DNA of 64,000 nt, from IMG/VR virus record IMGVR_UViG_3300035698_012707, positions 17,343 to 81,342 of that record. One strand, given 5' to 3'. Below, one piece after another: positions 40,731 to 64,000 of this stretch. The translations under genes were made by a program, and so were the position numbers. This stretch comes from a virus. The notes beneath the pieces were generated by a model. The model saw only the letters and a program-made list of their open reading frames with translations. It ran no database searches and had not been told where the DNA came from. Numbering within the stretch: the stretch's first letter is position 1; every line of letters starts with the position of its first letter.

Positions 40731-40739
40731 TTGTCTCCA

Positions 40740-45154: not shown

Positions 45155-45741
45155 ATCTTCTCCCTTATTTCGTGTCGGCTAGAACCAACCCATTTTAATA
45201 TGTACTTTGTGTCTTTCTCTGTCAGTAAATCCTTGTCCCACACAGTTGTAAAAATATGATCTACATCTGAAGATTTTAAGTACTCAACACTCTTCTTAAC
45301 GCTATCCAAGTCTATATCGTCACCCGCTATTTTCTTATATTTATTAGGGGGTGCCTTAACGTCCATGTCAACATAGTCGACTAGATTATTATCTATAAGA
45401 TACTTTAGCCTGTAGAAGTAGCTTCCATTAGTGTTCAGCTTTACAAGAAGCCCCCTGTTCTTTATCTTTTTCATAAATACAGCGAGGTCATTCCATGTTA
45501 GCGGTTCCCCTCCTGAAATAGTTACGCCAGTAATTTTATCCTTTAGCTTTGAAATCTTATCCAACACATCCTCTTCTTGCAGTAGCTCTCTGTATTCTTT
45601 GTCTGTGTTCGTGAGGAATTTTTGTAGCTCTGGATTGTGACAATATGGACACCTAAAGTTACATCCCTGCGTAAAAACAATAGCTGATATCTGTCCAGGG
45701 TATTCATTTAATGAAATAGATTGGAAGCCAGCTATATGCAT
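45151..45741 (-). CDS. nrdG: Anaerobic RNR activating enzyme (radical SAM)
   Basis: GCNFRCPYCHN, ISGGEP, NTNG, MDVK. Confidence 0.92.
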   Translation of the reverse strand: MHIAGFQSISLNEYPGQISAIVFTQGCNFRCPYCHNPELQKFLTNTDKEYRELLQEEDVLDKISKLKDKITGVTISGGEPLTWNDLAVFMKKIKNRGLLVKLNTNGSYFYRLKYLIDNNLVDYVDMDVKAPPNKYKKIAGDDIDLDSVKKSVEYLKSSDVDHIFTTVWDKDLLTEKDTKYILKWVGSSRHEIREKI

Positions 45742-45742
45742 A

Positions 45743-45913
45743 TTACTTTTCCTTTTCTGAGTTAAATTTAAACGTTTTTCTGTTGTTAAACTCTTCAGTC
45801 TTGCCTTTGTTCCAGCTCTTAACAGCCCTGAGGTATCCACATACTCTTGAAAATACTTCACAGCTTTGTCTCTTTATACCGCCCCATGTTTCTGCGTTTT
45901 GATCTCTTGTCAT
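45743..45913 (-). CDS. nrdD: Separate 56-aa NrdD glycyl-radical peptide (not in ORF track)
   Basis: Hand translation MTRDQNAETWGGIKRQSCEVFSRVCGYLRAVKSWNKGKTEEFNNRKTF...; ATGA overlap with the nrdD stop. Confidence 0.85.
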   Translation of the reverse strand: MTRDQNAETWGGIKRQSCEVFSRVCGYLRAVKSWNKGKTEEFNNRKTFKFNSEKEK

Positions 45914-48900
45914 TTTGCCTCCTTAGTTGTCTCCAGTTCTTTGATTATTCCTTCATCACACTTAGGACAAAACTTATGTTCACCAAACAAGTATCCATGC
46001 TTAGGACATATGCTAAACGTTGGAGTTATTGTAAAGTACGGCAAGTGATATTTTTCACATATGAGTCTTACAAGTTTCTTAAGTGCCGTAGTATCCTCTA
46101 TCTTTTCACCTATAAATAGATGTATTACCGTACCACCTGTGTATTTAACCTGCAAACTATCCTGTGAGTCCAGCACTTCGAATAGATCATCCGTGTGCCC
46201 CACTGGGAGCTGCGTAGAGTTAGTATAGAAGGGTTCTGCACCCTCCTTGTAAGCCTCTTCGTTCGCACAGATTATACTTTTGTCTGTCTTCTTATCTTTA
46301 ATTGCTAATCTATATGCAGTTCCTTCTGCAGGAGTAGCTTCAAGATTATAGTTATTACCTGTTTCTTTCTGGTATTTTACAAGCCTATCTCTCATATAGT
46401 CTAGTACCTTTGATGCAAACTTGTGTCCCCTCTTTGTAGAGATATCTTCTCCTAAGAGATTAATACAAGCCTCATTCATACCTACGAGACCTATGGTTGA
46501 GAAGTGGTTAAACCAATATTTATGAAATCTTTTCTTTACGCTCCTTAGATAGAACTTAGCGTACGGATATAGGTCATTGTCAGCAAACTCTTCTAGCACT
46601 TTTCTTTTTATCTCCAGGCTTTCTTTTGCCTGGTCCATGAGCTTACCAAGGTTCTTCATAAAATCAACGCCTGTCTCTGACGTATGGGCTAGCCTTGGCA
46701 TGTTAATAGTTACTACTCCTATGCTGCCTGTCAGAGGGTTGGCACCGAAGAGCCCTCCACCTCTTAAGGCTAGTTCCTTAGTGTTAAGCCTAAGCCTGCA
46801 ACACATAGAACGAGCATCTTCTGGATTCATGTCCGAGTTAATAAAATTCGAAAAGTATGGGATACCGTACCTAGCAGTAATATGCCAGAGAAGATCAAGA
46901 TTAGGATTATCCCAATCAAAATCGCTGGTAATATTATAAGTAGGAATAGGAAAAGTAAACACGCGACCTTTAGCATCTCCCTCCAACATGACTTCAAAAA
47001 ATGCTTTATTGAACCAGTCCATCTCTTTCTGAAAGTCTCCATACTTCTCCTTCTGTGGCTTACCACCAATGATTACATTTTGATCCTTAAAGTTTGGTGA
47101 TGGGGTAAGGTCAAGCGTTACGTTAGTAAAAGGAGTGTTACCAGTGATGAATACCTTGCCATTTCTCCTAGCCACAACGGTTTCATTGTCAGTATTTGGG
47201 CACCAAATTATGCCATCATAGTTTACTTCATTAACACAATTTATATACGTATCTCGATGTCTTATTATTCTAATTATATATCTATCTTTTTTAGATATTC
47301 CATCAGGCTTTCTAACGCTCACAGTAGAACCATATCCTGCTATAACTGCAACTTCCTGCAAGCCATCAAGTATCTCCTTGGACGTTGTTGTTATCTTACT
47401 TCCTTCATGCCCGTCTCCTTTGATGTAAGTTTCAAGGAATACCCTAGCACCCTCTGTGTCTAAGTGATGCTTAATACACTCAGGTATAGATTTTATGTTT
47501 CCATTACCAAAATATCTTAAAATTTCACGAGTAGATTCTGCATCAAATCTTAAAACATTGCAAGGTCTTCCAAACCCTCGTTGAGTTCTTTCTGTGTATT
47601 TAAGCCCGAGGTTACTACATATACTTTTTATTTCGCTATAATTTTCAGGATTAGCTATTTTTGATTGATATATAGATATCCTTCCAGCACCTCTTAAACC
47701 TTTGTCGTACGTTCCTTCAGACACTACCCAAGCAAGAAGCCTAATTGAATCATCTGACTGTTCTGTGGTTTCACCCGCACTCGAAAGTGTGCCTCTACTA
47801 CCTATGGGTACAATGAACGGTGATTTGAGCTCCATTACAGATTCAACCTCTTCCATAACATACCCTGATCCATTGAACTTCTTTCTGACTACTCTATGCT
47901 TCGGAGAAAGAAGCTGATCTGAAATCCTATTTTTAAGATTATACATCTTCCCTTTGTATTCTCTTGAAAACATCTTTTTTACTGGTAAATATTCTATAGC
48001 TTCCTTGTCTAAATTAAATGTTGCTATAGTGTCTCCAGCATTAACTCCATCATGATACTTCCATCCGTCTGCAGTCAATATCTCAGTGTCCTCTGACATA
48101 CATTGAAACCCTACTCTGGTTGGCACGTTTACGTTGAAGATAAACTCCTGCATTGTTTGCTTTACTTCTTTGTAGGTGAGCTTATCTACTCTTATAAAGG
48201 GTGCTAGTAGGGTATCAAGGTTAGAGAACGCTTGTGCACCAGCTGCTTCTCCCTGCAACGTGTAGAAGAAGTTTACTACCTGGCCTAGCGCTGTCCTGAG
48301 GTGTTTGGCTGGTTTACTCTCTGTCTTTTCCGGAACACCGGTGAATCCTTCTACCAAGAGATCCCACAGATCCCATCCCACACAGTAAACTGATAGGGCT
48401 GATAGATCGTGTATATGGAAGTCTCCTTTAATGTGTGCGTCTCCTATTTCTTTAGGATATATTTCATTTAACCAATATACTTTACTTAGCTCTGAAGACA
48501 TGTAATTGTTTAGTCCTTGTAAAGAAAATCCCATGTTACTATTTTCGTTTACTTGCCAATCAGATTTCTTAAGGTATTGATTGATTAGATCTCTGTTAAA
48601 ACTAGCTGATATTTCCTTTACTCTGTCTTTCTTCTCTCTGAATATAATATATTCTTTTGCAGTCTTATTATAAGGAGAGCCTAATAATATTTCCTCTACT
48701 ATATCCTGCATCTCTTCAACCGTAGGTATGACCCGCTCTTCCTCGTCGCTAGAGAGTTGATGTGCTAACCTAAGAACTTTTACAGTAAGCTTCTTAGCTA
48801 TCTTGTCATCAAATTCCCCCGTTACTTGTCCAGCAGATCTTATTGCTCTTTCAATTTTAGCAGGGTTGAATTTATGAAGTCTTCCGCTTCTCTTTTTTAT

Positions 48901-48924
48901 TTTTTTAAATACCTGCTCTGGCAT
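45910..48924 (-). CDS. nrdD: Class III ribonucleotide reductase large part (ATP cone) with intein
   Basis: ATP cone; HIHD, YC, GAQA, FTFPIPT, SMCCRL, EATPAE, CPKHG...CPKC; lacks RxxGY. Confidence 0.95.
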   Translation of the reverse strand: MPEQVFKKIKKRSGRLHKFNPAKIERAIRSAGQVTGEFDDKIAKKLTVKVLRLAHQLSSDEEERVIPTVEEMQDIVEEILLGSPYNKTAKEYIIFREKKDRVKEISASFNRDLINQYLKKSDWQVNENSNMGFSLQGLNNYMSSELSKVYWLNEIYPKEIGDAHIKGDFHIHDLSALSVYCVGWDLWDLLVEGFTGVPEKTESKPAKHLRTALGQVVNFFYTLQGEAAGAQAFSNLDTLLAPFIRVDKLTYKEVKQTMQEFIFNVNVPTRVGFQCMSEDTEILTADGWKYHDGVNAGDTIATFNLDKEAIEYLPVKKMFSREYKGKMYNLKNRISDQLLSPKHRVVRKKFNGSGYVMEEVESVMELKSPFIVPIGSRGTLSSAGETTEQSDDSIRLLAWVVSEGTYDKGLRGAGRISIYQSKIANPENYSEIKSICSNLGLKYTERTQRGFGRPCNVLRFDAESTREILRYFGNGNIKSIPECIKHHLDTEGARVFLETYIKGDGHEGSKITTTSKEILDGLQEVAVIAGYGSTVSVRKPDGISKKDRYIIRIIRHRDTYINCVNEVNYDGIIWCPNTDNETVVARRNGKVFITGNTPFTNVTLDLTPSPNFKDQNVIIGGKPQKEKYGDFQKEMDWFNKAFFEVMLEGDAKGRVFTFPIPTYNITSDFDWDNPNLDLLWHITARYGIPYFSNFINSDMNPEDARSMCCRLRLNTKELALRGGGLFGANPLTGSIGVVTINMPRLAHTSETGVDFMKNLGKLMDQAKESLEIKRKVLEEFADNDLYPYAKFYLRSVKKRFHKYWFNHFSTIGLVGMNEACINLLGEDISTKRGHKFASKVLDYMRDRLVKYQKETGNNYNLEATPAEGTAYRLAIKDKKTDKSIICANEEAYKEGAEPFYTNSTQLPVGHTDDLFEVLDSQDSLQVKYTGGTVIHLFIGEKIEDTTALKKLVRLICEKYHLPYFTITPTFSICPKHGYLFGEHKFCPKCDEGIIKELETTKEAK
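47137..48102 (-). mobile_element. Intein with LAGLIDADG-type endonuclease in nrdD
   Basis: GFQ|CMSEDTEILT...SPKHR...WVVSEG...YIKGDG...VFITGN|TPF; 322 aa. Confidence 0.92.
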
Positions 48925-49732
48925 CGATATCTCCTTCATCATAATCGTACAGTTTCATTATTCTTTCATGATCTAATCCAGTAGCGATTCTATCGTCCAT
49001 AACTTTAGGATGCGTACCTTTATATTTTGTAAGCTTTTGCTCCTCAAGCATTTCAAGTTCTTGAGGTCCTATATCTTTATATTCTTTTCCGTGAAACGCT
49101 CTTTCTATTCTATTATACTTATCTACATAGACTTCTTTTGTTCTTACGTGTCCGTAGTGAAACACCTTAACATTGACAAATACAGTGTCCTCTTCTGGGA
49201 TAGGTTGTCCATGATTGTCTACGTGCATATCTGGATCGTATCCGACTGCACCATGATGTATTCCCCAATCATTTTTTACCATATATATCTTCTCAGTGTA
49301 TAGATCTTTCCAGTCTGGACACCCATTTAAAATGTGGTCGAAGTCCTTGTAGAAATGAAGAGTATTAAACTTAATAGCAACAACGTTGCTAGCAACCACA
49401 TCGGGCAGTCGTCTAATAGCTTCAGCATCTTTTTCATGATACACCTCGTCGGCATCCATCAGAACGCACCAGTCCCCCGTACAATAGCCAAGCGCTAATG
49501 ATTTTTGAATAGCATACATAGCTTTGCCTAGTGAGTGGAGCCATTTGTTTTGATAGATCTTTATTCTTGTATCCCCGATCTCTCTTACCTTATCTAATGT
49601 GTTATCAGAACTTCCTCCATCTAGCACTACAACTTCGTCAGCAAACAATAGAGCTGATTTGATTCCTTCTATAGTAGTAAACTCATTAGATATTGAATTT
49701 GTAGTCATAGTATATACAGATATTTTTGCCAT
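48905..49732 (-). CDS. GT2 glycosyltransferase
   Basis: VLDGGSSDNT, MDADE, FHYG. Confidence 0.88.
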   Translation of the reverse strand: MAKISVYTMTTNSISNEFTTIEGIKSALLFADEVVVLDGGSSDNTLDKVREIGDTRIKIYQNKWLHSLGKAMYAIQKSLALGYCTGDWCVLMDADEVYHEKDAEAIRRLPDVVASNVVAIKFNTLHFYKDFDHILNGCPDWKDLYTEKIYMVKNDWGIHHGAVGYDPDMHVDNHGQPIPEEDTVFVNVKVFHYGHVRTKEVYVDKYNRIERAFHGKEYKDIGPQELEMLEEQKLTKYKGTHPKVMDDRIATGLDHERIMKLYDYDEGDIDARAGI

Positions 49733-50466
49733 TATTTTTTACGCTCCTCTGCAAGATCAAGAGGTCTTTTTACTGTATCTTTCGTTTGTTCTCCTGGCTT
49801 ACCCATCTCATGTATATAATGCATACCAAAGACTGGATAGATACTGTTCCTTAACTTATGTCTATCCCTTTTCTTGTTGTGTAAAATATCAAAGGCAGAA
49901 TCTACATCTAACTCCTTGCACTCATGGTAACCAACTACTTCCTCATGTATAGGTCTTATAAATCTACAGTAAGACCTGAACAACCTTGATTGGTAGTCTG
50001 GGTATGTTTCTCCGTCTTCTTCCCCGTCTATAATCTCTCTTCGTGGAAACTTGTAACAGTCTATTTCATTTTGTTCTATCATATCAGGAATCTTCTTAAA
50101 AGCATCCTTAGAAAATCTTTCATCCGGATCTGGAAAAAGAGTCCAATCTGTATAGACATATTTCATAGCAATATTTTTTTGTTCTGCAAAATGCCCCTGG
50201 AATGACGATATTTTAAGAGTATCCACGTATGGCTCAGCAAGCGCTACTGTGTTATCAGTACTGCCACCGTCTATCATCACTATTCTTGTTACAAGAGGTC
50301 TAATGTGTTCTAAGAACTCTACTATATTGTCTTCTTCGTTAAGGGTTATAAACGCTGCAGTTATACCATGATACTCTTCCCAGTCTCTATCCACAAGAGT
50401 AAAATCTATATTATCTGAACTAACTTTTATCTTTTTCAATGTTAGCCTCCATAAATCCCATGTCAT
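49732..50466 (-). CDS. GT2 glycosyltransferase
   Basis: TLNEE, IDGGSTDNT, DPDE, YPDYQ.R, IHE. Confidence 0.88.
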   Translation of the reverse strand: MTWDLWRLTLKKIKVSSDNIDFTLVDRDWEEYHGITAAFITLNEEDNIVEFLEHIRPLVTRIVMIDGGSTDNTVALAEPYVDTLKISSFQGHFAEQKNIAMKYVYTDWTLFPDPDERFSKDAFKKIPDMIEQNEIDCYKFPRREIIDGEEDGETYPDYQSRLFRSYCRFIRPIHEEVVGYHECKELDVDSAFDILHNKKRDRHKLRNSIYPVFGMHYIHEMGKPGEQTKDTVKRPLDLAEERKK

Positions 50467-51631
50467 TTTTAATGGTTTTTTCTTTGTTTACTTTGTCGTG
50501 AGCAGCTTGGATAGCTTTATGAAGCTTCTCTGAAGTATGATCCCATGTCCATGATTCAGATATATCTTTAGCAGCCTTGTCTCCAATCTTCTTGGCCTCA
50601 TCTTGATGATCGTATATCCATCTCATAGTATCACTTAGCTTGGCCTCGTCCATATCAAACCAATTCTGTCCACCATATTGAGGTTGTACTCTAAGAAATT
50701 CAGCGTTGTTAATGGGGACAAGACGCCCTTCTATCAAAAAACTATTATCTTTATTCATAAAATCTGTGTTGCCTCCCCATGATGGTCCTACGGAGGGAAC
50801 GCCACAAGCCATAGCTTCAACGAAAGGAAGACCAAAACCCTCCCCTCTAGACGGAAGAACAAAGCAATCAAATGATTTATAGAGATTTGGTAGAGCATCG
50901 TCTGGTAAAATCTCTGTCCATAATACTATTTTAGGAAAATCTTTTCTACCGTTTTCTTTCTCAAACTCTTGTTTTATCAGACGTATCTCATTTCTTACGT
51001 GGTTTAAGGTATCCTCTACAGGGAACTTCCAGAAAACCCTAAGAGTAAGGCTAACGTCTTCGTCTCCCTTGAAAGCGTTATAGTAAGCTCTTACTAAAGC
51101 TTTTGGATTCTTTCTTTCCGTCCAGTCAAATACTGATCCAAAGTTAAATTTTCCGTGGTCATAAGTAAGGGGCTTAACACTTGGGTTATATTTACTTGTG
51201 TCTGCTCCGTGAGGTATAACCTTTATCTTTTTGCCGTCCAACCCCATCTTTATGTAAGATTTTTTATTTTCTTTAGAAGGAACCCATATTTCGTCCATAG
51301 CCTTGAGACCTAGCAACCAGGTTATTGGTGCCCCATCTGTCTCAAAGGGTGTATAGCATACATGGTAGGATGCTCTGGGATCTATAAAAAAGTTCTCAGG
51401 AGTAAGATGTTGTATAAACAAAAAATCCTTATTGCTTATTGGGTTTGTTTCTAACGCCTTAAGCTTCTCGCTTACTTCCCCTAAATTTGGTGAAGGTCCT
51501 CTCCAAAATCTACGAGGCCTAAGCCTCATCTTCATATCAGTATACTTCATTAGTCCCATAAGATGGTTTCTTGATACAGCTCCGTAACCAGAAAGATCAT
51601 ATGGGCAACTATAATACAGTACATCCATCAT
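50420..51631 (-). CDS. GT4 (GT-B) glycosyltransferase
   Basis: SGYG, RKN, PSRGEGFGLPFVEAMACG. Confidence 0.92.
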   Translation of the reverse strand: MMDVLYYSCPYDLSGYGAVSRNHLMGLMKYTDMKMRLRPRRFWRGPSPNLGEVSEKLKALETNPISNKDFLFIQHLTPENFFIDPRASYHVCYTPFETDGAPITWLLGLKAMDEIWVPSKENKKSYIKMGLDGKKIKVIPHGADTSKYNPSVKPLTYDHGKFNFGSVFDWTERKNPKALVRAYYNAFKGDEDVSLTLRVFWKFPVEDTLNHVRNEIRLIKQEFEKENGRKDFPKIVLWTEILPDDALPNLYKSFDCFVLPSRGEGFGLPFVEAMACGVPSVGPSWGGNTDFMNKDNSFLIEGRLVPINNAEFLRVQPQYGGQNWFDMDEAKLSDTMRWIYDHQDEAKKIGDKAAKDISESWTWDHTSEKLHKAIQAAHDKVNKEKTIKNDMGFMEANIEKDKS

Positions 51632-52992
51632 TATATTGCCTCCGGTGTAAATTTCATGTCGGTTATTTTTACATCTTTTGGAGCTCCCTCTGGAAACAAT
51701 GCAGAATCGATTATCTTTTCCCATTCTTTACAGATAATACTCCAATCCATCTTTAGGGCTTGCTCTCTACCCTTTTTTCCATACTCCTCACAAAGTTTCT
51801 CATCGTCTAGGAGAGTAACAATACTTTCGACATATTCATCCATGTCTATTATAGCTCTTCTTATGTTCGTGAGTGGCTCTGCCTCTAACACTTTAGGCGG
51901 TATTAGAAAACCACAACCTCTAGCCCATTCTGGATGAGCGCTATAATCAGTGGCAACAATAGGTCTTCCACTCGACATAGCTTCCAAAATTGGCAATCCA
52001 AATCCCTCACCCCTTGTTGGCAATGTAAATATATCTATAGCATTATATAGAGCAGCCAGAGTTGATTCTTCCACCCCTCGTCCTATTTGTAGGTCAGGAT
52101 TAAATATAATTTTGCCCTTAAGACAAAAGTCCTCTTGAAGGTCTATCAAATCCCATCCACAATCTTTAGGTGCAGCATGGAGATACAATATGACATCATC
52201 TCTTGGGTTTCCTTTCTTTATGTCTCTAGAAAGACACTTCCTGCACTTGTCTGGCTTAGATGACTCTCTCTTAACATTGTCAAATATGGATGTTGTTATG
52301 CTCTTGCACTCTTCACACCTATACCATTCTCCGTTTACAACATGATAGAACATTTTAAATAAACTATCAAATGCTTTTCTTGGCTGATTTCTGGCTACTA
52401 TACCTATTACTTTCTTCCCATCAACACCTAGCATTCTTTTCTTAAAATCTTCTCTTTTTTCTTTTGACACTGGCCTAAACAATTTAGTGTTAACGCCATG
52501 ATATATGTAACTTAAGTTTGCATTTGGAGCTCTCTGCTTTATTACTTCCATACCATACTTACCGTAAGCCACAGCAAAATCCATACTATCTACAATAGGC
52601 CCCCATTTTGACGGCACTGGCTGACCATCTATCGGGAAATAACCCACCCACTTGAAGTCACCGCTATCCTTTGAATCTTTAGTATGTTCTGTCATCCACA
52701 TATCCCCTAAGGTCCAGACTAGGTCTGGCTTAATCTTCTCTATATACTCGGGAAGAGATTGTATAGCATACTTATCTTCCTGCGTTATCATACCCTTAGG
52801 GCTTTTCTTAGTAGTAAATACGGGGTAAGGTACTTCTCGGTTGTTCTCTTTATGAAACCATCCTATAGCACTTACTTCATATTTACCAGTAGAACTTAAA
52901 TAAGACCATACTTCCCTCCCTACCCTACCGAAACCAGTATCTATCTTTGGAGAGTCAGTCATAACTAGTATTTTCTTTCTTTGAAAAGACAT
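51631..52992 (-). CDS. GT4 glycosyltransferase with inserted Zn finger
   Basis: DSP..DTGFG, RNQPRK, CEEC...CRKC insert, GEGFGLPILEAM. Confidence 0.9.
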   Translation of the reverse strand: MSFQRKKILVMTDSPKIDTGFGRVGREVWSYLSSTGKYEVSAIGWFHKENNREVPYPVFTTKKSPKGMITQEDKYAIQSLPEYIEKIKPDLVWTLGDMWMTEHTKDSKDSGDFKWVGYFPIDGQPVPSKWGPIVDSMDFAVAYGKYGMEVIKQRAPNANLSYIYHGVNTKLFRPVSKEKREDFKKRMLGVDGKKVIGIVARNQPRKAFDSLFKMFYHVVNGEWYRCEECKSITTSIFDNVKRESSKPDKCRKCLSRDIKKGNPRDDVILYLHAAPKDCGWDLIDLQEDFCLKGKIIFNPDLQIGRGVEESTLAALYNAIDIFTLPTRGEGFGLPILEAMSSGRPIVATDYSAHPEWARGCGFLIPPKVLEAEPLTNIRRAIIDMDEYVESIVTLLDDEKLCEEYGKKGREQALKMDWSIICKEWEKIIDSALFPEGAPKDVKITDMKFTPEAI

Positions 52993-53173: not shown

Positions 53174-53629
53174 TTATCCTATTTCAATTCTTTTGATATT
53201 CTCATTATGTGCAGTCTCCTTGTAGGGGATCCTAACCTTCAGCATCCCATCGTTAAGATTAGCAGTAATCTTATCTTCTTCTAAGTTTTCGGGAAGCCTA
53301 AGGCTTCTGCTAAAAGATCTTTTGGAAACTTCCCTACAATAGTATTTGTCACTACTTATTTCCTTATCCTGATTTGAGTCACCCTTTATAGTTAGGATGT
53401 TGTCCTTTACTTCCAGGTTAACTTTTTCCTTTGGAAGCTCAGGCACGTAAGCATCTACACATAAGCAACCATCTTCATCATAAACATTCATCTTAGGATA
53501 GGTTCCTTTGGCTAGCGCCCCAGGAAAAAAATCTTTTGAAAACATTTCGTTTAACAACCTGTCCATCTGGTCTCCCAGTGAACGTGTTAACGCAGATCTG
53601 TCATTGAAAAATGGAATCATCTCTCTCAT
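53174..53629 (-). CDS. Hsp20/alpha-crystallin small heat-shock protein
   Basis: PKMNVYD, LTIKG, FSRSLRLP, ANLNDGMLKVRIP. Confidence 0.92.
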   Translation of the reverse strand: MREMIPFFNDRSALTRSLGDQMDRLLNEMFSKDFFPGALAKGTYPKMNVYDEDGCLCVDAYVPELPKEKVNLEVKDNILTIKGDSNQDKEISSDKYYCREVSKRSFSRSLRLPENLEEDKITANLNDGMLKVRIPYKETAHNENIKRIEIG

Positions 53630-54694: not shown

Positions 54695-57154
54695 TTACCA
54701 TGGGTCTACCTCCGATGAAGACATAAATCCAGTCTTAGGGTTAGAAGGGTTTCTCTTGTCAGACATGCTTTTTAGAGCAGCCTTATATGTAGCCTTTAGT
54801 TCTCCAGCCTCCGAAGAGTTGCACTCATAAAAGAGTGAATGTTCTGGAGAAAACTTATAATAAAGAGTACCCTTAAAGTCAGTTATCTTGTTCTTTTGTA
54901 TGTCTATCTCTACTATTGGTTTTTTAACTACTACTCCGTTCTTTTCTTCTATCCACAGAGCCTCTGCTGAGTCTCTTCTGGCATGTATATCGTTGTAAAG
55001 CATGCCTATCATATTATTGTCGTACTCCATCTGCTTAGACTCTGCTATGTCGCTCAGTGCCGGCCTTTTGGATCCATTTACTCCAAGAAACTTTCTCAGC
55101 TCCATTGTGCAGATGGCTGTTATGTGAAGTCTATTTTTCATAGCATGTATTCTTCCACTAGCATGCTTGAATCTTATTCTCTCGTCCTTTGCGGACTCAT
55201 CAGATAGCTTATGGAAGTTATCTAAAAAGAATATTACCTGCTTCTCTGGGTATTTGTCTTGCATGTATCTAATCCAGTTCTCAGCAAAATTAAGATCAAC
55301 TCCATGACTAACATCTTTGATTGCAAATCGTCCCTCAGCCATCATCGACGTCATGTCTCTCCACCCATCGTCCAGCTTCTTCTTATCTTCATCACTGTGG
55401 ACATGTTCTGTGGGGTGAGTAACCTGTCTTATCTCTAGCCCAGATGAAATAGATACTAGCCTTGGTATTGCCTGCTGTCTAGAGTCATCAATGGACATGA
55501 ATAAAACACAAGCATCGTCATTGTATTTTGCTATCCTATACGCTAGATTAAACATAAATCCAGTCTTTCCTAGATTACTGTCTCCAGCGAAGGTTATCAT
55601 ATTGTCTTCTCTTGGTATTCCAGAAAAAGCGTCATCAAATATATCCCAGCCTGTCTTGAAACCAAGCAGTCCAGCCTGTCTGTCTTCAAATTTCTCTCTG
55701 ACATCAGTCATATAGGTCATAAGTTCATCACTAGAGTGCACCTCGTCGCTGTTTGTGCTTCTTAGCTTTCTTATGTCTTCTAGTGCTTCTTCAAATATTG
55801 CTACTGGGTCGCCTTCTCTCTCGTTGATCTCACTCATAACCTGGCGCACCTTGGCGTTCTCTTTCTCTTTAATGCGCGCTTCTTCGTAGTTTAGAATGGA
55901 ATCAAGTTGCCGTTGAATGGCCTTGAGTCTTACTCCAGCGAACTCAGAGAGATGTTTGCACATACCCTCTCGCCTGATGTTGTTAGGCTCGTTAACTATC
56001 AACGGTATCATGCGATCACAGACATCTTCTTTATCAAAATCGTAAGGGAACCTGCTTAGTCTCCACTCAAAAGCATCCATGAGAGGTAGTTTTCTAAATG
56101 CATCTAGGCCATGCTTATCCAGATAATCATCCGGATCACATTCCTCTGTCTCTGATGGCATCTTTACTATCTTTATCCTAAGAGCCTCTTCCCCGCTAAA
56201 GTGTTCATCTAATAGCTTTTCTGTCTTATCTTGGCCGGAATTGTCTCCATCCAGACATAAAATTATATCCCTTATGTTGAGTGCTTTGATTAAATTTATG
56301 TGTTCATACGTAAGGGCAGTACCTCCGATAGCACAGCTATTTAGAAGACCATGCTTCTGAGCTGTAATCCAATCCGGATAGCCTTCAAATATATATAACG
56401 GTGGTACGCTCTTCTTCGCAGCGTATAACCCATACAGTATACTACTCTTGTGATATATAGGACACTTACTGCTCGTGTTTCTGAACTTGAAAGACTTAGA
56501 GCCCTTCTTGAATGTCATGTCCCTGCCAGCAAACCCTACTATTTTACCCTTCTCATTTCTAATTTCAAAGAGTAACATGTTTGGTGTGTATAACTGGCTA
56601 TTAAAATCTATGTCCCTTAGAAAATCTTTAGTAAAGCCACGGTTAGATAGTCTCGTCATGAAGTCTTCGTAACTCTTCACTGTACCAACTCCATACTCTC
56701 TACACAGCGATACAGGCCACTTTCTCTTCTTAAGGTACTCTATTGGTTGGTTCTCACTTATTATATCAGAGGCTTCAGCGTAAGCCTTGTATACTTCTGA
56801 CCTATATATCTCTTCCTCTGTGACCTCAAACTTATCGTTGTACGGGATGTTATACTTGTCAGCTAGATAGAACAAGTTCTCGTATATAAATTCTCTTCCT
56901 GTTGTAGGTTTGTCTTCTAAGAAATGAGCTGCATCTACTATAGTCCCCTTAGCGCCACAGGAAAAGCAATTAAATACCTGATTCTTAGACTCTGGGTGGA
57001 AACTAGCTGATGGATTGTCATCCTTATGCTCTGGGTTTATGCATCTAAACTTACCCTGAGCTGTTACTTTTATGTTATGTTCCTCAAGATAGTCTTTGAG
57101 ATATGGCATTAACTTTTGCTTTAGGCCGTCCAAATAGGTATTACTCGTCTCCAT
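54695..57154 (-). CDS. DnaG primase-DnaB helicase fusion
   Basis: CINPEH...CFSC zinc finger, EGYPD and LDGD TOPRIM, DPD, GDSNLGKT Walker A. Confidence 0.92.
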   Translation of the reverse strand: METSNTYLDGLKQKLMPYLKDYLEEHNIKVTAQGKFRCINPEHKDDNPSASFHPESKNQVFNCFSCGAKGTIVDAAHFLEDKPTTGREFIYENLFYLADKYNIPYNDKFEVTEEEIYRSEVYKAYAEASDIISENQPIEYLKKRKWPVSLCREYGVGTVKSYEDFMTRLSNRGFTKDFLRDIDFNSQLYTPNMLLFEIRNEKGKIVGFAGRDMTFKKGSKSFKFRNTSSKCPIYHKSSILYGLYAAKKSVPPLYIFEGYPDWITAQKHGLLNSCAIGGTALTYEHINLIKALNIRDIILCLDGDNSGQDKTEKLLDEHFSGEEALRIKIVKMPSETEECDPDDYLDKHGLDAFRKLPLMDAFEWRLSRFPYDFDKEDVCDRMIPLIVNEPNNIRREGMCKHLSEFAGVRLKAIQRQLDSILNYEEARIKEKENAKVRQVMSEINEREGDPVAIFEEALEDIRKLRSTNSDEVHSSDELMTYMTDVREKFEDRQAGLLGFKTGWDIFDDAFSGIPREDNMITFAGDSNLGKTGFMFNLAYRIAKYNDDACVLFMSIDDSRQQAIPRLVSISSGLEIRQVTHPTEHVHSDEDKKKLDDGWRDMTSMMAEGRFAIKDVSHGVDLNFAENWIRYMQDKYPEKQVIFFLDNFHKLSDESAKDERIRFKHASGRIHAMKNRLHITAICTMELRKFLGVNGSKRPALSDIAESKQMEYDNNMIGMLYNDIHARRDSAEALWIEEKNGVVVKKPIVEIDIQKNKITDFKGTLYYKFSPEHSLFYECNSSEAGELKATYKAALKSMSDKRNPSNPKTGFMSSSEVDPW

Positions 57155-57357: not shown

Positions 57358-58017
57358 TCAGCGATAGTGTCCTCCTTTTTTAAGGTTTTCTGACTGCCAT
57401 AAGGGCTGCAAATTCGTATAATGACAAGCTTCCAATAATTGTTTTCTATCGGTTAAATCGAAGCTACATAAAGGCTTAATATGGTCTATGTGCCACTTAT
57501 CATTTCCTAAGCCATGATTGTTCCAAGACATTTCTGGATAAAACATGTTTTCAAGATGTACTTTAAATTCTTCTATAGAGCACCCGAGATCCCTCACTGC
57601 TGATCCAGACTTTGAATTATTTTTTATTGCTTTTGCAATCCTGTCTCTCAAAAGTGCTTTTAGTCTAAATTGCAAGTCAGTCTTCTTTTTTAGACTGCTA
57701 TATTTTACATTTCTAGATACAACGCATTCCTTACACTCACTCGCAATACCTATACGCCTATCTTTTCTTTTGTGAAATTCATCTGTAGATTTTATCTCGG
57801 AACACGCTGTGCACTGTTTAACATTGCCCTCTAATATTTTTGATGGAACAGGATGCGGTTTGTAGCTTAATCTATCATGTTTGCTTTTGCATTCTTTGCA
57901 TGAAGATGTATATCCGCTCTTTCTATTGTTCCTTACATAAAACTCTGTAAGATTTTTTTCTTTCTTACATTTAGAGCATACTTTTTTATCTATCAATGCG
58001 CAACTATCCTCTGCCAT
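57358..58017 (-). CDS. HNH homing endonuclease
   Basis: CxxC repeats; WHIDHIKPL...HYTNLQPLW..ENLKKG. Confidence 0.85.
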   Translation of the reverse strand: MAEDSCALIDKKVCSKCKKEKNLTEFYVRNNRKSGYTSSCKECKSKHDRLSYKPHPVPSKILEGNVKQCTACSEIKSTDEFHKRKDRRIGIASECKECVVSRNVKYSSLKKKTDLQFRLKALLRDRIAKAIKNNSKSGSAVRDLGCSIEEFKVHLENMFYPEMSWNNHGLGNDKWHIDHIKPLCSFDLTDRKQLLEACHYTNLQPLWQSENLKKGGHYR

Positions 58018-58265
58018 CCTTCACCTCCAAATTCCATTCTTCGGTTTCCATTACTAAACCACAGTTTTTGCAAGTCTTTACACTCGGTCCATAGTGCCCT
58101 GTGGCCCACATAGACTTTGTCCAATCAGATACTTTCTTGTGTTTACAGTTTATTCGTAGCTCATCTATCTCGTGTTCGTGACGTGCTGTCATTTCTTCTA
58201 TTTCTGACGCGTGTCTCTTCATTGCTTTTTCAGTTGTCTCTTTCATTGCTTCCTCCATTGTCTAC

Positions 58266-58294
58266 ATTATAACACAATATTTTCGACATTTCAA
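58266..58294 (-). promoter_or_regulatory. Sigma70-type promoter for the primase-helicase unit
   Basis: Minus strand TTGAAA-17-TATAAT with TG. Confidence 0.65.
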
Positions 58295-58303: not shown

Positions 58304-58657
58304 TGGTGGACCTGCCGGTAATCGAAACCGGGTCCTATATGTCCTTCAGCTAGATCGATGTACAGTCATTCTTACTTGGGGGTGACCACCAGTTACTTTT
58401 ATCTTATATTACGAGCAAGTAACGAGCTCTCTACCAACGTGAGAATATTCTGTTGCAACGTTATCCTCAGACGCCCGGTCCCTAGAGACCAAAATAGGTT
58501 CAACAACTTTGTCATCCAGCATATCGGACACCATGTTGAGAACCCGCTTAAACGGTTTAGGTTTAGCATTTATTTTTTGTGCATCTTTTTAACGAGGCCA
58601 GATGCTCCTCGGACTGCGCTCTAGAATTCAAACGAATAGTCGAATCCTTTCAGGCCC
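58304..58657 (-). ncRNA. ssrA: tmRNA
   Basis: 5' GGGCCTGAAAGGATTCGAC; 3' CCGGTTTCGATTACCGGCAGGTCCACCA; G3-U70; PK1-like GAGG.GCATCT..CCTC...AGATGC; 354 nt. Confidence 0.92.
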
Positions 58658-58679: not shown

Positions 58680-58749
58680 ATTATATCACATTTATATGTC
58701 CTTTTCAACCTATTTTTTAGTTGAAATACAACTATATTTATGCTATAAT
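58680..58749. promoter_or_regulatory. Back-to-back sigma70 promoters (tmRNA on -, nuclease on +)
   Basis: TTGAAA-17-TATAAT on minus (58708-58680) and on plus (58721-58749). Confidence 0.7.
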
Positions 58750-58795: not shown

Positions 58796-59656
58796 ATGGA
58801 ACTTATTAAGAATGTGGACTCGTACCTTGAGACACCCAAACCGGTGAACCCACCCAGATACCACAGGGGATATCACCCATCGGCTGCTTCATGTGTAATC
58901 AAGAACGAGTACGATGAAGATGAGGTAGTTGGAAAGTGTATGAGAGATAGCTACTGGTCACACAAGTCTGTAGACAAATCAAACCCCATGAACTCCAGAG
59001 GTGTACGGATATGCTCTGTTGGATCCATGGTTGAGCGTTGGGAGACAGACAAGTACAAAGAAATGGGCATATGGAGAGGCAACAACGTCAAGTTCTTTGA
59101 TACTGATAACCATATTTCAGGTGAAGTCGATGCTTTTGTGGAAGATTTACAGACAAAGCAGATAGTAGGTGTTGAGATTAAGACTGGGTATGGATATATG
59201 TTCCAGTCAAAGGTTATAGGTAGACCAGATCGTAAAGGAACCCCTAAGTTAGATCACTTAATGCAGGTTATGTTATACATGAATTACTTTAAAGAAATTC
59301 CATTGTTTAAAATGGTATACATTGACAGAGGAAACGCTGCTAGAGCAGAGTTTAATATAACTATAGACAAGAATAGTGGCGGAGTAAAGGTAGATGGTAA
59401 GAGACACTGTGAGAGGCTTACTATACCCTCTATACTCCATAGGTATAAAGAGCTTGGAAAATGTCTGGAGGATGGTGTTTTGCCCGAGAGAGATTACCAA
59501 CTACAGTACTCTAAGGAGTATCTTCAGTTTTTACATGACTCTAATCGCATGACAAAGACAGATACTAAGGTATTTGAAAAAACTGGAAACGTTGAAAGAG
59601 GAGATTGGAGATGTAGTTACTGTGATTACAAAGATTATTGCTGGAAGGAGGCTTAA
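58796..59656 (+). CDS. Cas4-like PD-(D/E)xK exonuclease
   Basis: HPS...C, SGEVD, VEIKT, Q..LY, CSYCDYKDYC. Confidence 0.8.
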   Translation: MELIKNVDSYLETPKPVNPPRYHRGYHPSAASCVIKNEYDEDEVVGKCMRDSYWSHKSVDKSNPMNSRGVRICSVGSMVERWETDKYKEMGIWRGNNVKFFDTDNHISGEVDAFVEDLQTKQIVGVEIKTGYGYMFQSKVIGRPDRKGTPKLDHLMQVMLYMNYFKEIPLFKMVYIDRGNAARAEFNITIDKNSGGVKVDGKRHCERLTIPSILHRYKELGKCLEDGVLPERDYQLQYSKEYLQFLHDSNRMTKTDTKVFEKTGNVERGDWRCSYCDYKDYCWKEA

Positions 59657-61343: not shown

Positions 61344-62552
61344 TTATACTGTTGTGTATGTAAGCGTAACTGAATCTAGCACCGGTGTTGTCGAAGAATT
61401 AGTTCCCTGAATAAGCTCTACCAGTAAATACATGGTCTCAGTAGCATATGCAGATACATCTAAAGTACTGCTAGGTATTATTGGATTAGATGTGCTAGAC
61501 CACAACGGAACTCCTGCGTCAAAATCTCCTTCAGTTGGATACAAAGACACCTTACATTGTATATTATCATACATTGGATAAGTAGTCAAAGAAGTAATCC
61601 TATTGAATACACCTGTATCCCAATCTGGAAGAGATACCTTCACTCCTACTTTACCGTTTGTCTTGTATTCTACTTTTTCTATTCCTATTTCCTGAGCTCC
61701 ATACACAAAGGTTTTATAATCATCTTCTATTGCATGATTGTCTTGTTTAAACTTAAAAGTAAACCCTACAGGTTGTATGTCGTTAAACAAATACTTCTTC
61801 CTTGTTGCATTGTCTTCTCCCGCTGTTGGAAACGTTGGGAGAACTAAGTCTTGTGCTGTAAGAGTGTTATATGTTACCGAAGTTATGTCAGACGTCCCTT
61901 CTGGGTAAGGGAATATGTATATAGAATTTACATTAGGATTGCTCATCGACGGCAAAAGAATATCCATCTTACATGTTACTTCTCCCTTTGCGTAGTCCCT
62001 GCTAAATCTAGTTTTTCTTTCCCAGAATGACTGATTGTTTCCGTTAAAAGCTCTAAGGGGGCTTGTCTCCTCTACCTTAAGGCTACCTCCCTCATCCAAA
62101 GGAGTAACAGAAACTGATAAATTTGGTGATTGATATATTTCACCAGTATTTATGTTTACTGTATATACTTTTGAAAAACTATTACTTACAGGGAGAGTAG
62201 CTATACCAAAGTCAGTATCAACATAGCACCTGTCTGATGGCGACAGACTATCTGGAAATAATACATTCTTAGTTCTATAAAATTCTTCATGAAACATTTT
62301 ATACCCTGAAGCGCTCTGCTGGTAAGCATGCATTACCCCACTTACGGCATAGAGTCTCTCATTAAGAGCGTCTGTCTCATGCTTTAAAGTAGACTTAAGC
62401 TCATCTAAATCAATAGCCTGTGAAGAAGCCTCCTCAAATATGGTATTAAGGTCGTATAGTATCTCCTCAAAATTGCTGTTCATGTCAGCCGAAGAACTAT
62501 TCCCTCGCCATGTGGGTTCTATCGGTGAAAAAGTTGGTATTAAAGCACACAT
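61344..62552 (-). CDS. Probable virion structural protein
   Basis: SS..MN..F..I..DL N-terminus, beta-rich body, TPVL..V.L end. Confidence 0.5.
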   Translation of the reverse strand: MCALIPTFSPIEPTWRGNSSSADMNSNFEEILYDLNTIFEEASSQAIDLDELKSTLKHETDALNERLYAVSGVMHAYQQSASGYKMFHEEFYRTKNVLFPDSLSPSDRCYVDTDFGIATLPVSNSFSKVYTVNINTGEIYQSPNLSVSVTPLDEGGSLKVEETSPLRAFNGNNQSFWERKTRFSRDYAKGEVTCKMDILLPSMSNPNVNSIYIFPYPEGTSDITSVTYNTLTAQDLVLPTFPTAGEDNATRKKYLFNDIQPVGFTFKFKQDNHAIEDDYKTFVYGAQEIGIEKVEYKTNGKVGVKVSLPDWDTGVFNRITSLTTYPMYDNIQCKVSLYPTEGDFDAGVPLWSSTSNPIIPSSTLDVSAYATETMYLLVELIQGTNSSTTPVLDSVTLTYTTV

Positions 62553-63079: not shown

Positions 63080-64000
63080 TTATACTGCTATTTCAGTTAT
63101 TGTTATACCAGAAGCCATTGTTCCACCCATTTTTCTTGCAGAGCCCGATCCATTGAATGTAAAGGTTCCAGAAGTACCTCCTACTCTTACCCTGAATGTA
63201 GTAGAACTTGTTGTACCGGCCGACATGTAGTGTGTGAAATTATATATACCCCCTCTACCATTTACTTCATAATCAGAAATACAAGCCAAAGCATTAAGTG
63301 TAGCATCTTGGAACAAAGCTACAGTGTTGAATACTGCGCCACCATTATCACCCTGAACAGTTACATCTATTTTTAGCTTGTTAGTAGCGCTAGTCGGGGT
63401 AATAGCAAGTGTCATATATTCGTCCCCCTCAGTACTCTGCGGAACGGTATCGTCAAAAGGCATAATTGTAGCACCCGTATTTACCTCACCATCCTGCACA
63501 TTAACTACCTGGACTGTCTGCCCTGATCTCATAGAACCTACGCCAGACCCAAGTTCAGTTATAACTATACTGGAAGCCAAGGTTCCACCCCAATTTCTAA
63601 CTCCAACTTCTCCGTTAAAAGTTATTGTTCCTGCAGTAGCAGAGCCCGCTCTAACTCTAAAGGTAATAGGAGAAGTAGATCCTGCAGTCATTATATATGA
63701 AAAACTTAACGCTTGGATAGCTTCTGTTTGATTGTCAAAAGTAGAAGCAGTTGCTAAAGCATCTACATCCGAATCTTTAAATAAACAACCTATAATTTTA
63801 GACTGTGTGCTCATAGAACACATAAGATCCACATCTATCTTTAAGATGCTGTTAGAGCTTGTTGGTGTTATAGCAAGAGTCATAAACTCGTTACCTTCTG
63901 TAATTTGAGGAATAGTATCATCATCAGGTATTGTAGTTGAGCCAGTCAACATTTCACCGTCTTGTGTTTGTACTTGTTGAATGGTTATTCCGCCCCCACC
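63080..64000 (-). CDS. C-terminal part of a tail-fibre/virion protein with a duplicated beta domain (5' end outside window)
   Basis: Two copies of QDGE..TG.T..P.DDT.PQ.TEG.E.MTLAITPTS....LKIDV...TFRVR.G...TFNG...GGT.AS.I.ITE; frame open to the window end. Confidence 0.65.
   Translation of the reverse strand, partial: GGGGITIQQVQTQDGEMLTGSTTIPDDDTIPQITEGNEFMTLAITPTSSNSILKIDVDLMCSMSTQSKIIGCLFKDSDVDALATASTFDNQTEAIQALSFSYIMTAGSTSPITFRVRAGSATAGTITFNGEVGVRNWGGTLASSIVITELGSGVGSMRSGQTVQVVNVQDGEVNTGATIMPFDDTVPQSTEGDEYMTLAITPTSATNKLKIDVTVQGDNGGAVFNTVALFQDATLNALACISDYEVNGRGGIYNFTHYMSAGTTSSTTFRVRVGGTSGTFTFNGSGSARKMGGTMASGITITEIAV

What the first reader, a model, noticed from the sequence alone, without database searches (positions are those of the whole stretch)
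58304..58657. Phage tmRNA with a predicted 52-residue tag
The resume context after PK1 (AAAAAATAAAT-GCT, at 58567) parallels E. coli (AAAAAATAGTC-GCA). The frame stays open to TAA at 58409, giving AKPKPFKRVLNMVSDMLDDKVVEPILVSRDRASEDNVATEYSHVGRELVTCS. Typical tags are about 10 aa and end in ..LAA. This one takes up nearly half the RNA, runs through the region normally used by PK2-PK4, and ends VTCS. Inference: it rescues ribosomes while changing the fate of tagged proteins (avoiding or redirecting proteolysis, or appending a functional peptide). No smpB is seen in the window.
Basis: partly seen in the sequence, partly recalled or inferred. Interest (0 to 1): 0.7.

Follow-up and report, generated by a model that had tools for sequence, protein, structure and literature searches.

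The report
Phage tmRNA with conserved 52-codon tag
A salt-lake phage carries a ribosome-rescue RNA (tmRNA) whose built-in tag is 52 codons long instead of about ten, and related phages keep that frame under protein-level selection, so it is probably translated and useful.

Summary
Rfam finds a full-length tmRNA at exactly 58657..58304 on the minus strand (105.3 bits, cut-off 47). The canonical resume codon GCU (58567-58565) opens a 52-codon frame that ends at TAA 58411-58409.

Nine relatives from metagenome contigs keep the same resume context, 52 codons and TAA (10 of 10 sequences, 9 distinct DNAs). The other two sense frames and all three antisense frames are broken in most or all of them. 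Pooled pN/pS is 0.38 in the tag frame against 1.06 and 1.20 in the shifted sense frames. No column shuffle reached 0.38 (0 of 300). A codon model gives omega about 0.3, with LRT p = 7e-6.

The same stretch also folds into hairpins with compensatory changes, and the stop codon lies in a helix-5-like loop. Protein databases hold 16 further clusters of the tag. Most end in VTCS, some in LLKV or VLVA. ARAGORN at default settings misses all 8 full-length genes. No SmpB is found in the 81-kb record.

What the peptide does is not tested. I rate this a new variant of a known kind.

The parts
58680..58708 (-). Sigma-70-type promoter of the tmRNA gene: TTGAAA, 17 nt, TATAAT, with TG before the -10 hexamer. 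It ends 22 nt upstream of the mature 5' end.
   Evidence: 11 of 12 matches. The hexamers are conserved in 8 of 8 full-length genes, with TTGCAA in L009.
58304..58657 (-). tmRNA gene, one-piece form, 354 nt, with an encoded CCA end.
   Evidence: Rfam RF00023, 105.3 bits, model 1-374 of 374. ARAGORN finds the same coordinates only at lowered thresholds.
58632..58657 (-). 5' half of the tRNA-like domain. The acceptor strand GGGCCUG includes G3 of the G3:U pair.
   Evidence: the G:U pair is kept in 8 of 8, and the acceptor stem has 2 compensatory pairs.
58581..58612 (-). Pseudoknot 1: CCGAGG/CCUCG interleaved with GCAUC/GAUGC.
   Evidence: Aligned to PK1 of the family model at high posterior. Coordinates.
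58565..58574 (-). Resume context AAUAAAU followed by the resume codon GCU (58567-58565).
   Evidence: The 13 nt AATAAATGCTAAA are invariant in 10 of 10 sequences.
58412..58567 (-). Tag reading frame of 52 sense codons, AKPKPFKRVLNMVSDMLDDKVVEPILVSRDRASEDNVATEYSHVGRELVTCS. It also folds into hairpins.
   Evidence: Open with 52 codons in 10 of 10. pN/pS 0.38. Omega about 0.3, LRT p 7e-6. Hairpins with compensatory pairs.
58409..58411 (-). Stop codon UAA of the tag.
   Evidence: TAA at the same place in 10 of 10.
58392..58423 (-). Helix-5-like hairpin GUUACUU...AAGUAAC, with the last tag codons and the stop codon in its loop.
   Evidence: Alifold helix at columns 237-243/262-268, 98.2% of cells paired, 1 compensatory pair. 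Coordinates.
58304..58342 (-). 3' half of the tRNA-like domain: T arm (58331-58327 with 58319-58315), acceptor strand and CCA.
   Evidence: T arm has 4 compensatory pairs.

Best explanation
This is a working phage tmRNA whose mRNA-like domain has grown to 52 sense codons.

Shown: the gene has every sequence and structure hallmark of a one-piece tmRNA. These are a 7-bp acceptor stem with G3:U and CCA, a T arm, the long helix 2, PK1, the canonical resume context, and a stop codon in a helix-5-like loop. It also has its own conserved sigma-70-type promoter. In a clade of related phages, the frame that starts at the canonical resume codon is the only one of six that stays open. It keeps its length and evolves under purifying selection on the encoded amino acids, while the same nucleotides also keep RNA hairpins.

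Inferred: the RNA is charged with alanine and delivered to stalled ribosomes with the host's SmpB, since none is in the record. The ribosome then resumes on GCU, so the nascent chain receives the charged Ala plus 52 encoded residues before release at UAA.

Inferred, about 45% likely: the peptide is a composite handling or proteolysis signal tuned to the unknown host or to a phage factor, in the way the long Mesoplasma tag is tuned to Lon. It has a predicted N-terminal amphipathic helix, an acidic and probably disordered middle, and a conserved C-terminus. A tag that avoids degradation, or one that acts as an effector, is about 30% likely.
For: - Family membership: Rfam full-length match at 105.3 bits. 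Seven of 9 relatives give full-length matches of 90.6-96.4 bits; the other two are cut by contig ends.
- Frame conservation: 52 codons plus TAA in 10 of 10 sequences, 9 distinct DNAs. There is no indel inside the 156 nt, although the flanking tmRNA parts have indels.
- Other frames: stops within the tag region in 7 of 9 and 9 of 9 distinct sequences for the two shifted sense frames, and in 5, 9 and 9 of 9 for the three antisense frames.
- Selection: pooled pN/pS is 0.38, against 1.06 and 1.20 in the shifted sense frames. Column shuffles average 0.81 with a minimum of 0.396, and 0 of 300 reach 0.38.
- Codon model: IQ-TREE GY gives omega 0.30-0.35, 2dlnL 20.1 against omega = 1, p 7.4e-6.
- Whole-frame signal: pN/pS is below 1 in every block, including codons 1-11 (0.52).
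- RNA structure: 97.4% of cells are paired. Thirteen pairs changed on both sides, against 4.7 +/- 1.7 in shuffles (0 of 500). Four helices inside the frame carry compensatory pairs.
- Promoter conserved in 8 of 8.
- Wider family: 16 protein clusters. The six that read through from upstream each have 52 residues after the resume Ala position (my count).
- Sequence identity: the tag is 75-92% identical in relatives, similar to the flanking primase-helicase at 79-91% and the Cas4-like exonuclease at 77-86%.
Against: - No RNA or protein data exist; no RNA run holding the stretch was listed.
- Openness alone is not significant, with P = 0.35 after 71 random substitutions.
- The count of variable columns by codon position (17, 15, 26) is only a modest bias on its own.
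- The most conserved peptide blocks (EPILVS, VATEY, VTCS) coincide with RNA hairpins and are invariant even at synonymous sites. Their conservation cannot be credited to the peptide.
- Only 9 distinct DNA sequences support the selection tests.
- The peptide has no Pfam match, a low-confidence fold (pLDDT 58.6) and no informative Atlas neighbour. Its function is therefore unsupported by homology.
- No SmpB and no protease gene were found in the 58%-complete record.
- The host is unknown.
Confidence: 0.75

Rival explanations
1. The frame is not translated. It is a by-product of RNA-level conservation in a tmRNA that acts only through its tRNA-like domain, for example as an SmpB decoy like the TLD-only RNA of mycobacteriophage DS6A, or that has lost tagging.
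For: Large blocks of the frame are invariant at all three codon positions and lie in hairpins with compensatory changes. Openness alone is not significant. A TLD-only phage tmRNA that inhibits host tmRNA is on record (passages of PMC4131195; PMC11915505).
Against: The substitutions that do occur are periodic, with pN/pS 0.38 only in this frame and an LRT p of 7e-6. The length stays at 52 codons even in protein clusters only about 50% identical. The 13-nt resume context and the UAA are invariant in 10 of 10. A decoy would not need either of these.
Confidence: 0.1
2. The RNA doubles as an ordinary mRNA. A 41-residue protein is started conventionally at the internal AUG (codon 12, 58534), and the upstream codons are not translated.
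For: the ORF listing and public gene callers call exactly this 41-residue ORF. Nine of the 16 protein clusters are 41-residue forms that start at that Met.
Against: The Met is not conserved: L008 has Thr and P0002 has Leu at that position. I read no Shine-Dalgarno motif upstream of it in the sequence. Codons 1-11 also show pN/pS below 1 (0.52, against 2.5 and 2.9 in the shifted frames). The frame begins exactly at the invariant canonical resume context.
Confidence: 0.05
3. The tag is translated, but its role is to avoid or redirect proteolysis, or to act as a peptide effector made when ribosomes stall.
For: The main clade ends in polar VTCS: 10 of 10 DNA sequences and 10 of 16 protein clusters. 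Surveyed tags end in a hydrophobic residue, with Carsonella the noted exception (passage of PMC4131195). The two named phage tags checked here end in ...AALV and ...LQVA. A 52-residue selected peptide is far more than ribosome release needs. The record also carries 8 tRNA genes, an RtcB fragment, Hsp20 and Cpn10.
Against: Five of the 16 clusters end in hydrophobic LLKV or VLVA, like degrons. The VT codons of VTCS form one strand of the helix-5-like stem, so their conservation may be RNA-driven. No partner or protease was identified.
Confidence: 0.3

Closest known systems
Standard one-piece bacterial tmRNA (Rfam RF00023; E. coli SsrA as the type)
   Same: tRNA-like domain with G3:U and CCA, helix 2, PK1, an A-rich resume context with a GCN resume codon, a UAA stop in a hairpin loop, and a length of about 350 nt (helix-5 rule from passages of PMC1168896).
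   Different: The tag has 52 codons, against a most frequent length of 10 (passage of PMC11915505). The frame is 156 nt, whereas the mRNA-like domain spanned 48-126 nt in a 2005 comparative set. PK2-PK4 align only at low posterior. The tag ends in polar VTCS. The gene is on a phage, with no SmpB in the record.
Known phage tmRNAs: mycobacteriophage Bxz1 group and Bacillus phage G
   Same: A full tmRNA encoded by a large phage. In Bxz1 and phage G it lies beside the tRNA genes; here the tRNA cluster is about 37 kb away. Phage tmRNAs are listed in PMC4131195 and were found in 402 of 18,146 phage genomes (PMC9004378).
   Different: ARAGORN reads a 25-residue tag ending AALV in Bxz1 and a 13-residue tag ending LQVA in phage G. 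Here the tag is 52 residues, and ARAGORN at default misses the gene in 8 of 8 full-length family members. No DNA similarity to any of 50,697 phage records.
Mesoplasma florum / Mycoplasma ssrA tag recognised by Lon
   Same: [quoted passage not shown] This is the best precedent for a long, multi-determinant tag.
   Different: It is cellular, not phage-borne. Its length of 27 residues is my recollection and comes from no call. There is no sequence similarity, and no protease link has been tested here.
TLD-only tmRNA of mycobacteriophage DS6A
   Same: A phage-borne tmRNA derivative that relies on host SmpB (passages).
   Different: DS6A lacks a tag frame and inhibits host tmRNA. This RNA has the longest tag frame I could document.

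Membership tests
tmRNA (RF00023, one-piece form) | Covariance-model score above the curated cut-off over the whole model | tested here: met
   105.3 bits against 47, model 1-374 of 374. Relatives score 90.6-96.4 bits.
tmRNA (RF00023, one-piece form) | Seven-bp acceptor stem with the G3:U alanine identity pair and a 3' CCA | tested here: met
   G:U in 8 of 8, 2 compensatory pairs in the stem, and all sequences end in CCA.
tmRNA (RF00023, one-piece form) | T arm and T loop of the tRNA-like domain | tested here: met
   Five-bp stem, 100% paired, 4 of 5 pairs with compensatory change.
tmRNA (RF00023, one-piece form) | PK1 followed by an A-rich resume context and a resume codon | tested here: met
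   Aligned at top posterior to the consensus. AATAAATGCTAAA is invariant in 10 of 10. PK1 pair counts on alignment A2 are blurred by a 1-nt misalignment.
tmRNA (RF00023, one-piece form) | Tag frame ending at a stop codon in the loop of helix 5 | tested here: met
   UAA lies in the loop of the hairpin at 58423-58417 with 58398-58392, which has 1 compensatory pair. The rule comes from passages of PMC1168896.
tmRNA (RF00023, one-piece form) | Short tag (most often 10 residues) with a hydrophobic, LAA-like C-terminus | tested here: not met
   52 residues ending VTCS. This is a typical rather than a defining feature, since tags of 2 residues and tag-less forms are accepted members.
tmRNA (RF00023, one-piece form) | Pseudoknots PK2-PK4 between helix 5 and helix 2 | tested here: inconclusive
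   The Rfam alignment there has low posterior and many non-canonical pairs. Alifold finds hairpins with covariation inside the frame, and only about 24 nt lie between the helix-5-like hairpin and helix 2. My covariation scan singled out no pseudoknot pairings from its many chance helices, and I pursued them no further.
tmRNA (RF00023, one-piece form) | Works with SmpB; alanylated; supports trans-translation | not testable with these tools
   No SmpB in the 81-kb record, which is 58% complete. The host is unknown.
TLD-only phage tmRNA decoys (DS6A type) | [quoted passage not shown] | tested here: not met
   Full-length model match and a conserved 52-codon frame.
Protease-switched long tags (Mesoplasma Lon type) | The tag is the recognition signal of a protease other than ClpXP | not testable with these tools
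   There is no host genome, and no protease gene in the record. This is an analogy only.

The most novel reading that the evidence does not exclude
A clade of phages has turned trans-translation into a delivery route for a selected 53-residue peptide, counting the Ala the tmRNA carries. Whenever ribosomes stall, for instance after host nucleases cut mRNAs or tRNAs as a defence, the phage tmRNA rescues them. It then marks the released chains with a peptide that is not a ClpXP degron. The peptide would instead bind a phage or host factor, so that it re-routes, stabilises or signals. The tmRNA would then be a stall-triggered, start-codon-free expression system for a functional peptide.
Probability: 0.3. 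Interest if true: 0.85.

Novelty: new variant of a known kind. Interest (0 to 1): 0.68.

Why it matters
tmRNA tags are textbook short degrons. This tag is about five times the usual length, keeps its length across a phage clade, and evolves under amino-acid-level selection while the same nucleotides keep RNA hairpins. That makes it a natural case of a doubly constrained coding and structural RNA. It also suggests that tagging can carry more information than 'degrade me'.

It offers a concrete handle on an open question: why do phages carry tmRNAs at all?

It also exposes a blind spot. ARAGORN, the program used in the phage tmRNA surveys I read, misses all 8 full-length members at default settings. 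Long-tag tmRNAs may therefore be under-counted.

The tag could also be of practical use as an orthogonal tag, if it has a dedicated reader.

Tried and rejected
**Searches for relatives that found nothing**
- Phage records by DNA.
- Viral contigs with the primase-helicase, an exact TLD pattern, the tag peptide and the tag alignment.
- GTDB genome contigs with the tag alignment.
- tblastn of P0012 against phage records.
- Viral contigs with P0017.
- Viral contigs with P0011 gave two weak loci, L032 and L033. Neither holds a tmRNA by Rfam, so I rejected them as chance.

**Host search**
- A degenerate TLD pattern in genome contigs gave 13 archaeal loci, which I presume are tRNA genes and did not check, and one Fermentibacteria contig end. 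This was uninformative.
- The metagenome loci are not held as searchable records.

**Expression**
- No RNA holder was listed among the 11 runs.

**Peptide function**
- Pfam: 0 of 7 peptides matched.
- AlphaFold2 gave only pLDDT 58.6, with helices at 5-20 and 34-43. I did not run a fold search on so weak a model.
- The best ESM Atlas neighbour scored 0.75, below the useful range.
- No longer protein contains the segment (0 of 784 candidates).
- There is no paralogue in the phage record (best other hit E 0.49).
- The profile search also hit three long repeat proteins, P0014-P0016. Two carry cadherin domains, and hhalign gives P0014 a probability of 12.9%. I rejected them as chance.

**Statistics that were weak**
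- Simulated retention of the open frame was P = 0.35.
- Counts of variable columns by codon position were 17, 15 and 26.
- My hand reading of the 15 substitutions listed by read laying inside the frame put 10 at codon position 3. This was only a lead, as 381 further differences were not shown. The alignments replaced it.

**ARAGORN's alternative tag**
- ARNIR* at RNA position 242 was reported at a lowered threshold with 'Tag not identified'. I rejected it because it lies about 150 nt from PK1.

**Literature**
- Searches turned up no description of a tag of this length or of a long-tag phage tmRNA.
- The supplement archive of PMC11915505 had 0 occurrences of VTCS, EPILVS, 'tag' or 'Phage'. It evidently holds no tag list, so this says nothing about novelty.
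- The tmRNA database itself could not be consulted, so its maximum tag length is unknown to me.

**Not used**
- Complex prediction, because no partner candidate went beyond mere adjacency.

Full report
**1. The observation**

Rfam's tmRNA model (RF00023) matches window 58657..58304 on the minus strand at 105.3 bits (gathering score 47), E 4e-40. The match covers model positions 1-374 of 374 and is not truncated.

The alignment places AAAAAAUAAAU-GCU on the consensus AAAAAAUAAuU-GCa at top posterior probability. Reading from that GCU (58567-58565) gives AKPKPFKRVLNMVSDMLDDKVVEPILVSRDRASEDNVATEYSHVGRELVTCS and then TAA at 58411-58409. That is 156 of 354 nt.

ARAGORN at default settings reports the window's 8 tRNA genes but no tmRNA. 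Run with thresholds lowered to 90% or below, it finds the same coordinates. It then prints 'Tag not identified' and offers a five-residue frame about 150 nt from PK1, which I reject.

**2. Where it sits**

The window is bases 17343-81342 of an 81,342-base virus record that CheckV rates 58% complete. PHROGs and Pfam identify the following genes:

| Function | Window coordinates |
|---|---|
| Primase-helicase | 54695-57154, minus strand |
| Endonuclease VII/HNH-like protein | 57358-58017, minus strand |
| Cas4-like exonuclease | 58796-59656, plus strand |
| RecA/UvsX | 22965-23933 |
| NrdD and its radical-SAM activase | 45154-48942 |
| ThyX | 25137-25835 |
| SSB | 6895-7341 |
| Tubulin-like protein | 16514-17695 |
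| NusG-like protein | 28644-29228 |
| Cpn10 | 10289-10594 |
| Hsp20 | 53177-53629 |
| Glycosyl- and methyl-transferase cluster | 37868-52992 |

No SmpB (PF01668) is found anywhere in the record, and no protease family was seen in the 103 ORFs scanned.

The tmRNA has its own promoter, TTGAAA-17 nt-TATAAT with an upstream TG, at 58708..58680 (11 of 12 matches). The hexamers are kept in 8 of 8 full-length genes.

**3. Relatives**

Nothing similar is in 50,697 GenBank phage records. IMG/VR contigs gave nothing with four different queries.

The public-run index listed 11 runs from 11 studies: 8 salt-lake, 2 marine-sediment and 1 sediment metagenome. Laying the contigs of four of them at 80% likeness showed diverged copies of the tmRNA.

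I back-translated the tag and scanned JGI metagenome contigs. This returned 9 loci, all matching residues 1-52 at 75-92% identity. Seven of the 9 hold a full-length RF00023 match of 90.6-96.4 bits. The other two start inside the gene at a contig end.

The loci are syntenic with the window: Cas4-like exonuclease, tmRNA, a 68-residue ORF, then primase-helicase. The window has an extra 84-residue ORF and the endonuclease gene inserted after the tmRNA.

**4. Is the frame real?**

- In all 10 sequences (9 distinct DNAs), the frame from the canonical GCU has 52 sense codons and ends at TAA.
- The 13 nt AATAAATGCTAAA are invariant.
- There is no indel inside the 156 nt, although the flanking parts of the RNA have several.
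- The AUG-CUA frame, which is open for 56 codons in the window, is cut short in 8 of 10 sequences (12-37 codons). The third frame stops at once.
- The 88-residue antisense ORF of the window has stops in 5 of 9 distinct sequences. The other two antisense frames have stops in 9 of 9.

| Test | Result |
|---|---|
| Variable columns by codon position | 17, 15, 26 |
| Minimum changes by codon position | 19, 18, 34 |
| Pooled Nei-Gojobori pN/pS, tag frame | 0.38 |
| Pooled pN/pS, two shifted sense frames | 1.06 and 1.20 |
| Column shuffles | mean 0.81, minimum 0.396; 0 of 300 reach 0.38 |
| Codon model on the ML tree | omega 0.30-0.35; 2dlnL 20.1 against omega = 1; p 7.4e-6 |
| pN/pS by block (codons 1-11, 12-22, 23-32, 33-46, 47-52) | 0.52, 0.34, 0.31, 0.44, 0.14 |

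Two results cut the other way. Openness alone is not significant, because 35% of simulations keep the frame open after 71 random substitutions. The codon-position counts alone are modest.

**5. RNA structure**

On the 8 full-length sequences, the RNAalifold structure has 97.4% of cells paired. Thirteen pairs changed on both sides, against 4.7 +/- 1.7 in shuffles (0 of 500). The structure was derived from these same sequences, which favours it.

- The acceptor stem has G3:U in 8 of 8 and 2 compensatory pairs.
- The T arm has 4 compensatory pairs.
- Inside the frame, four helices carry compensatory pairs: columns 115-125/153-164, 129-135/142-149, 192-198/213-219 and 237-243/262-268.
- The last of these holds the final tag codons and the UAA in its loop (58423-58392). 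This is the arrangement described for helix 5 of standard tmRNAs (passages of PMC1168896).
- Only about 24 nt separate that hairpin from the 3' strand of helix 2. Rfam's alignment of PK2-PK4 has low posterior.

I therefore read the architecture as an expanded mRNA-like domain that has taken over the pseudoknot domain, not as a frame overrunning intact pseudoknots.

The peptide blocks EPILVS, VATEY and VTCS coincide with these hairpins and are invariant even at synonymous sites. Their conservation may be RNA-driven. Nucleotide identity of the frame (86.2%) equals that of the tRNA-like domain and helix 2 (about 85-86%).

**6. The wider family**

Profile searches of the protein collections found gene-caller ORFs that overlap such tmRNAs: 7 clusters, then 16 with a wider profile (16 of 3,947 candidates at E <= 0.001). 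The exhaustive representative search gave 11 hits, of which I reject three long repeat proteins as chance.

- Six clusters read through from upstream. They show the translated PK1 ('KRC') and '(I/T)(N/T)-A-K' context. By my count, each has 52 residues after the resume position.
- Nine clusters are 41-residue forms starting at the internal Met. One is 43 residues, which implies 54 codons.
- C-termini: VTCS in 10 of 16, VACS in 1, LLKV in 4, VLVA in 1.

The length is thus held at about 52 down to about 50% identity. The polar end is the majority form but is not universal. I could not fetch the DNA of these distant members.

**7. The peptide**

- It has no Pfam match (0 of 7).
- AlphaFold2 on 7 sequences gives pLDDT 58.6, with a helix at residues 5-20 (block means 74) and a weak, probably disordered remainder.
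- No Atlas neighbour exceeds 0.75.
- No longer protein contains it, and there is no paralogue in the record.
- Residues 1-22 carry net charge +2, and residues 23-52 carry -3.

**8. Mechanism**

Shown: a complete, promoter-equipped tmRNA gene, and a 52-codon frame at the canonical resume point under purifying selection.

Inferred from established tmRNA biology: alanylation through G3:U, delivery with host SmpB and EF-Tu, resumption on GCU, and release at UAA. This would add 53 residues, counting the charged Ala.

The function of the peptide is open. I favour a composite recognition signal for proteolysis or handling, by analogy with the Mesoplasma tag read by Lon (passages of PMC8138137). The hydrophobic ends of some family members point the same way.

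**9. Comparison and novelty**

Phage tmRNAs are known. They include the Bxz1 group, phage G and the TLD-only DS6A (passages of PMC4131195). ARAGORN found tmRNAs in 402 of 18,146 phage genomes (passages of PMC9004378). Huge phages carry tmRNA and SmpB (passages of PMC7162821).

ARAGORN reads a 25-residue tag in Bxz1 and a 13-residue tag in phage G. Both end in a hydrophobic residue.

The most frequent tag length is 10 residues, and 2-residue tags exist (passage of PMC11915505). In a 2005 comparative set the mRNA-like domain spanned 48-126 nt.

My literature searches found no report of a tag near 50 residues. I could not consult the tmRNA database itself, and the one supplement I could search holds no tag list. 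'Longest known' is therefore not established.

ARAGORN at default misses 8 of 8 full-length members. Surveys built on it would not have seen this family.

Verdict: a real feature and a new variant of a known kind. Interest 0.68.

Noticed in passing
window 57358-58258 (minus strand): An endonuclease VII/HNH-like gene (57358-58017) and an 84-residue ORF with its own TTGAAA-17-TATAAT promoter (58294..58266) lie between the tmRNA and the 68-residue ORF. No endonuclease-VII/HNH gene match was found in any of the 9 related loci, where the tmRNA is followed within about 80 nt by the 68-residue ORF. Only L010 has a homologue of the 84-residue protein. This looks like a mobile insertion beside the tmRNA gene.
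   Followed up: partly
window 58358-58624 (plus strand): An 88-residue ATG ORF runs antisense to the tmRNA and could be annotated as a gene. It carries stops within the tag region in 5 of 9 distinct relatives, and its pN/pS is 0.86, so it is not a gene.
   Followed up: yes
G000:C1:5895-6320 (outside the window; locus L031): Only the C-terminal third of an RtcB RNA ligase is present (Pfam positions 269-426 of 426, 166 bits), as a 141-143-residue ORF. No N-terminal part was found in the record. It may be a truncated or split RNA-repair gene in a phage that also carries tRNAs and a tmRNA.
   Followed up: partly
window 20229-21611 (plus strand): A cluster of 8 tRNA genes: Met, Leu(tag), His, Gln, Pro, Ile, Cys and Trp. 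It lies about 37 kb from the tmRNA.
   Followed up: no
window 10289-10594, 53177-53629, 16514-17695, 28644-29228: The phage encodes a Cpn10/GroES homologue, an Hsp20, a tubulin/FtsZ-family GTPase (weak PhuZ-like PHROG hit) and a NusG/KOW-like protein.
   Followed up: no
window 37868-52992 (minus strand): A roughly 15-kb block holds methyltransferases, family 2 and family 4 glycosyltransferases (one matching the 'GT4-conflict' family), a nucleotide-sugar epimerase/dehydratase, a cytidylyltransferase fusion and a LicD-like protein. It is interrupted by the anaerobic ribonucleotide reductase NrdD and its activase. This suggests extensive glycan or DNA modification and an anaerobic host.
   Followed up: no
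window 58680-58749 and 58266-58294: Three near-consensus promoters of the same type (TTGAAA, 17 nt, TATAAT, TG) lie within 500 nt. Two are back to back, driving the tmRNA and the Cas4-like exonuclease gene divergently. The divergent TTGAAA boxes are conserved in relatives.
   Followed up: partly
window 63083-63952 (minus strand): A 290-residue protein has a weak match to the Pgp3 C-terminal domain (E 2.8e-7, 30.8 bits). It lies next to a virion structural protein (61344-62552) and may be a receptor-binding protein.
   Followed up: no
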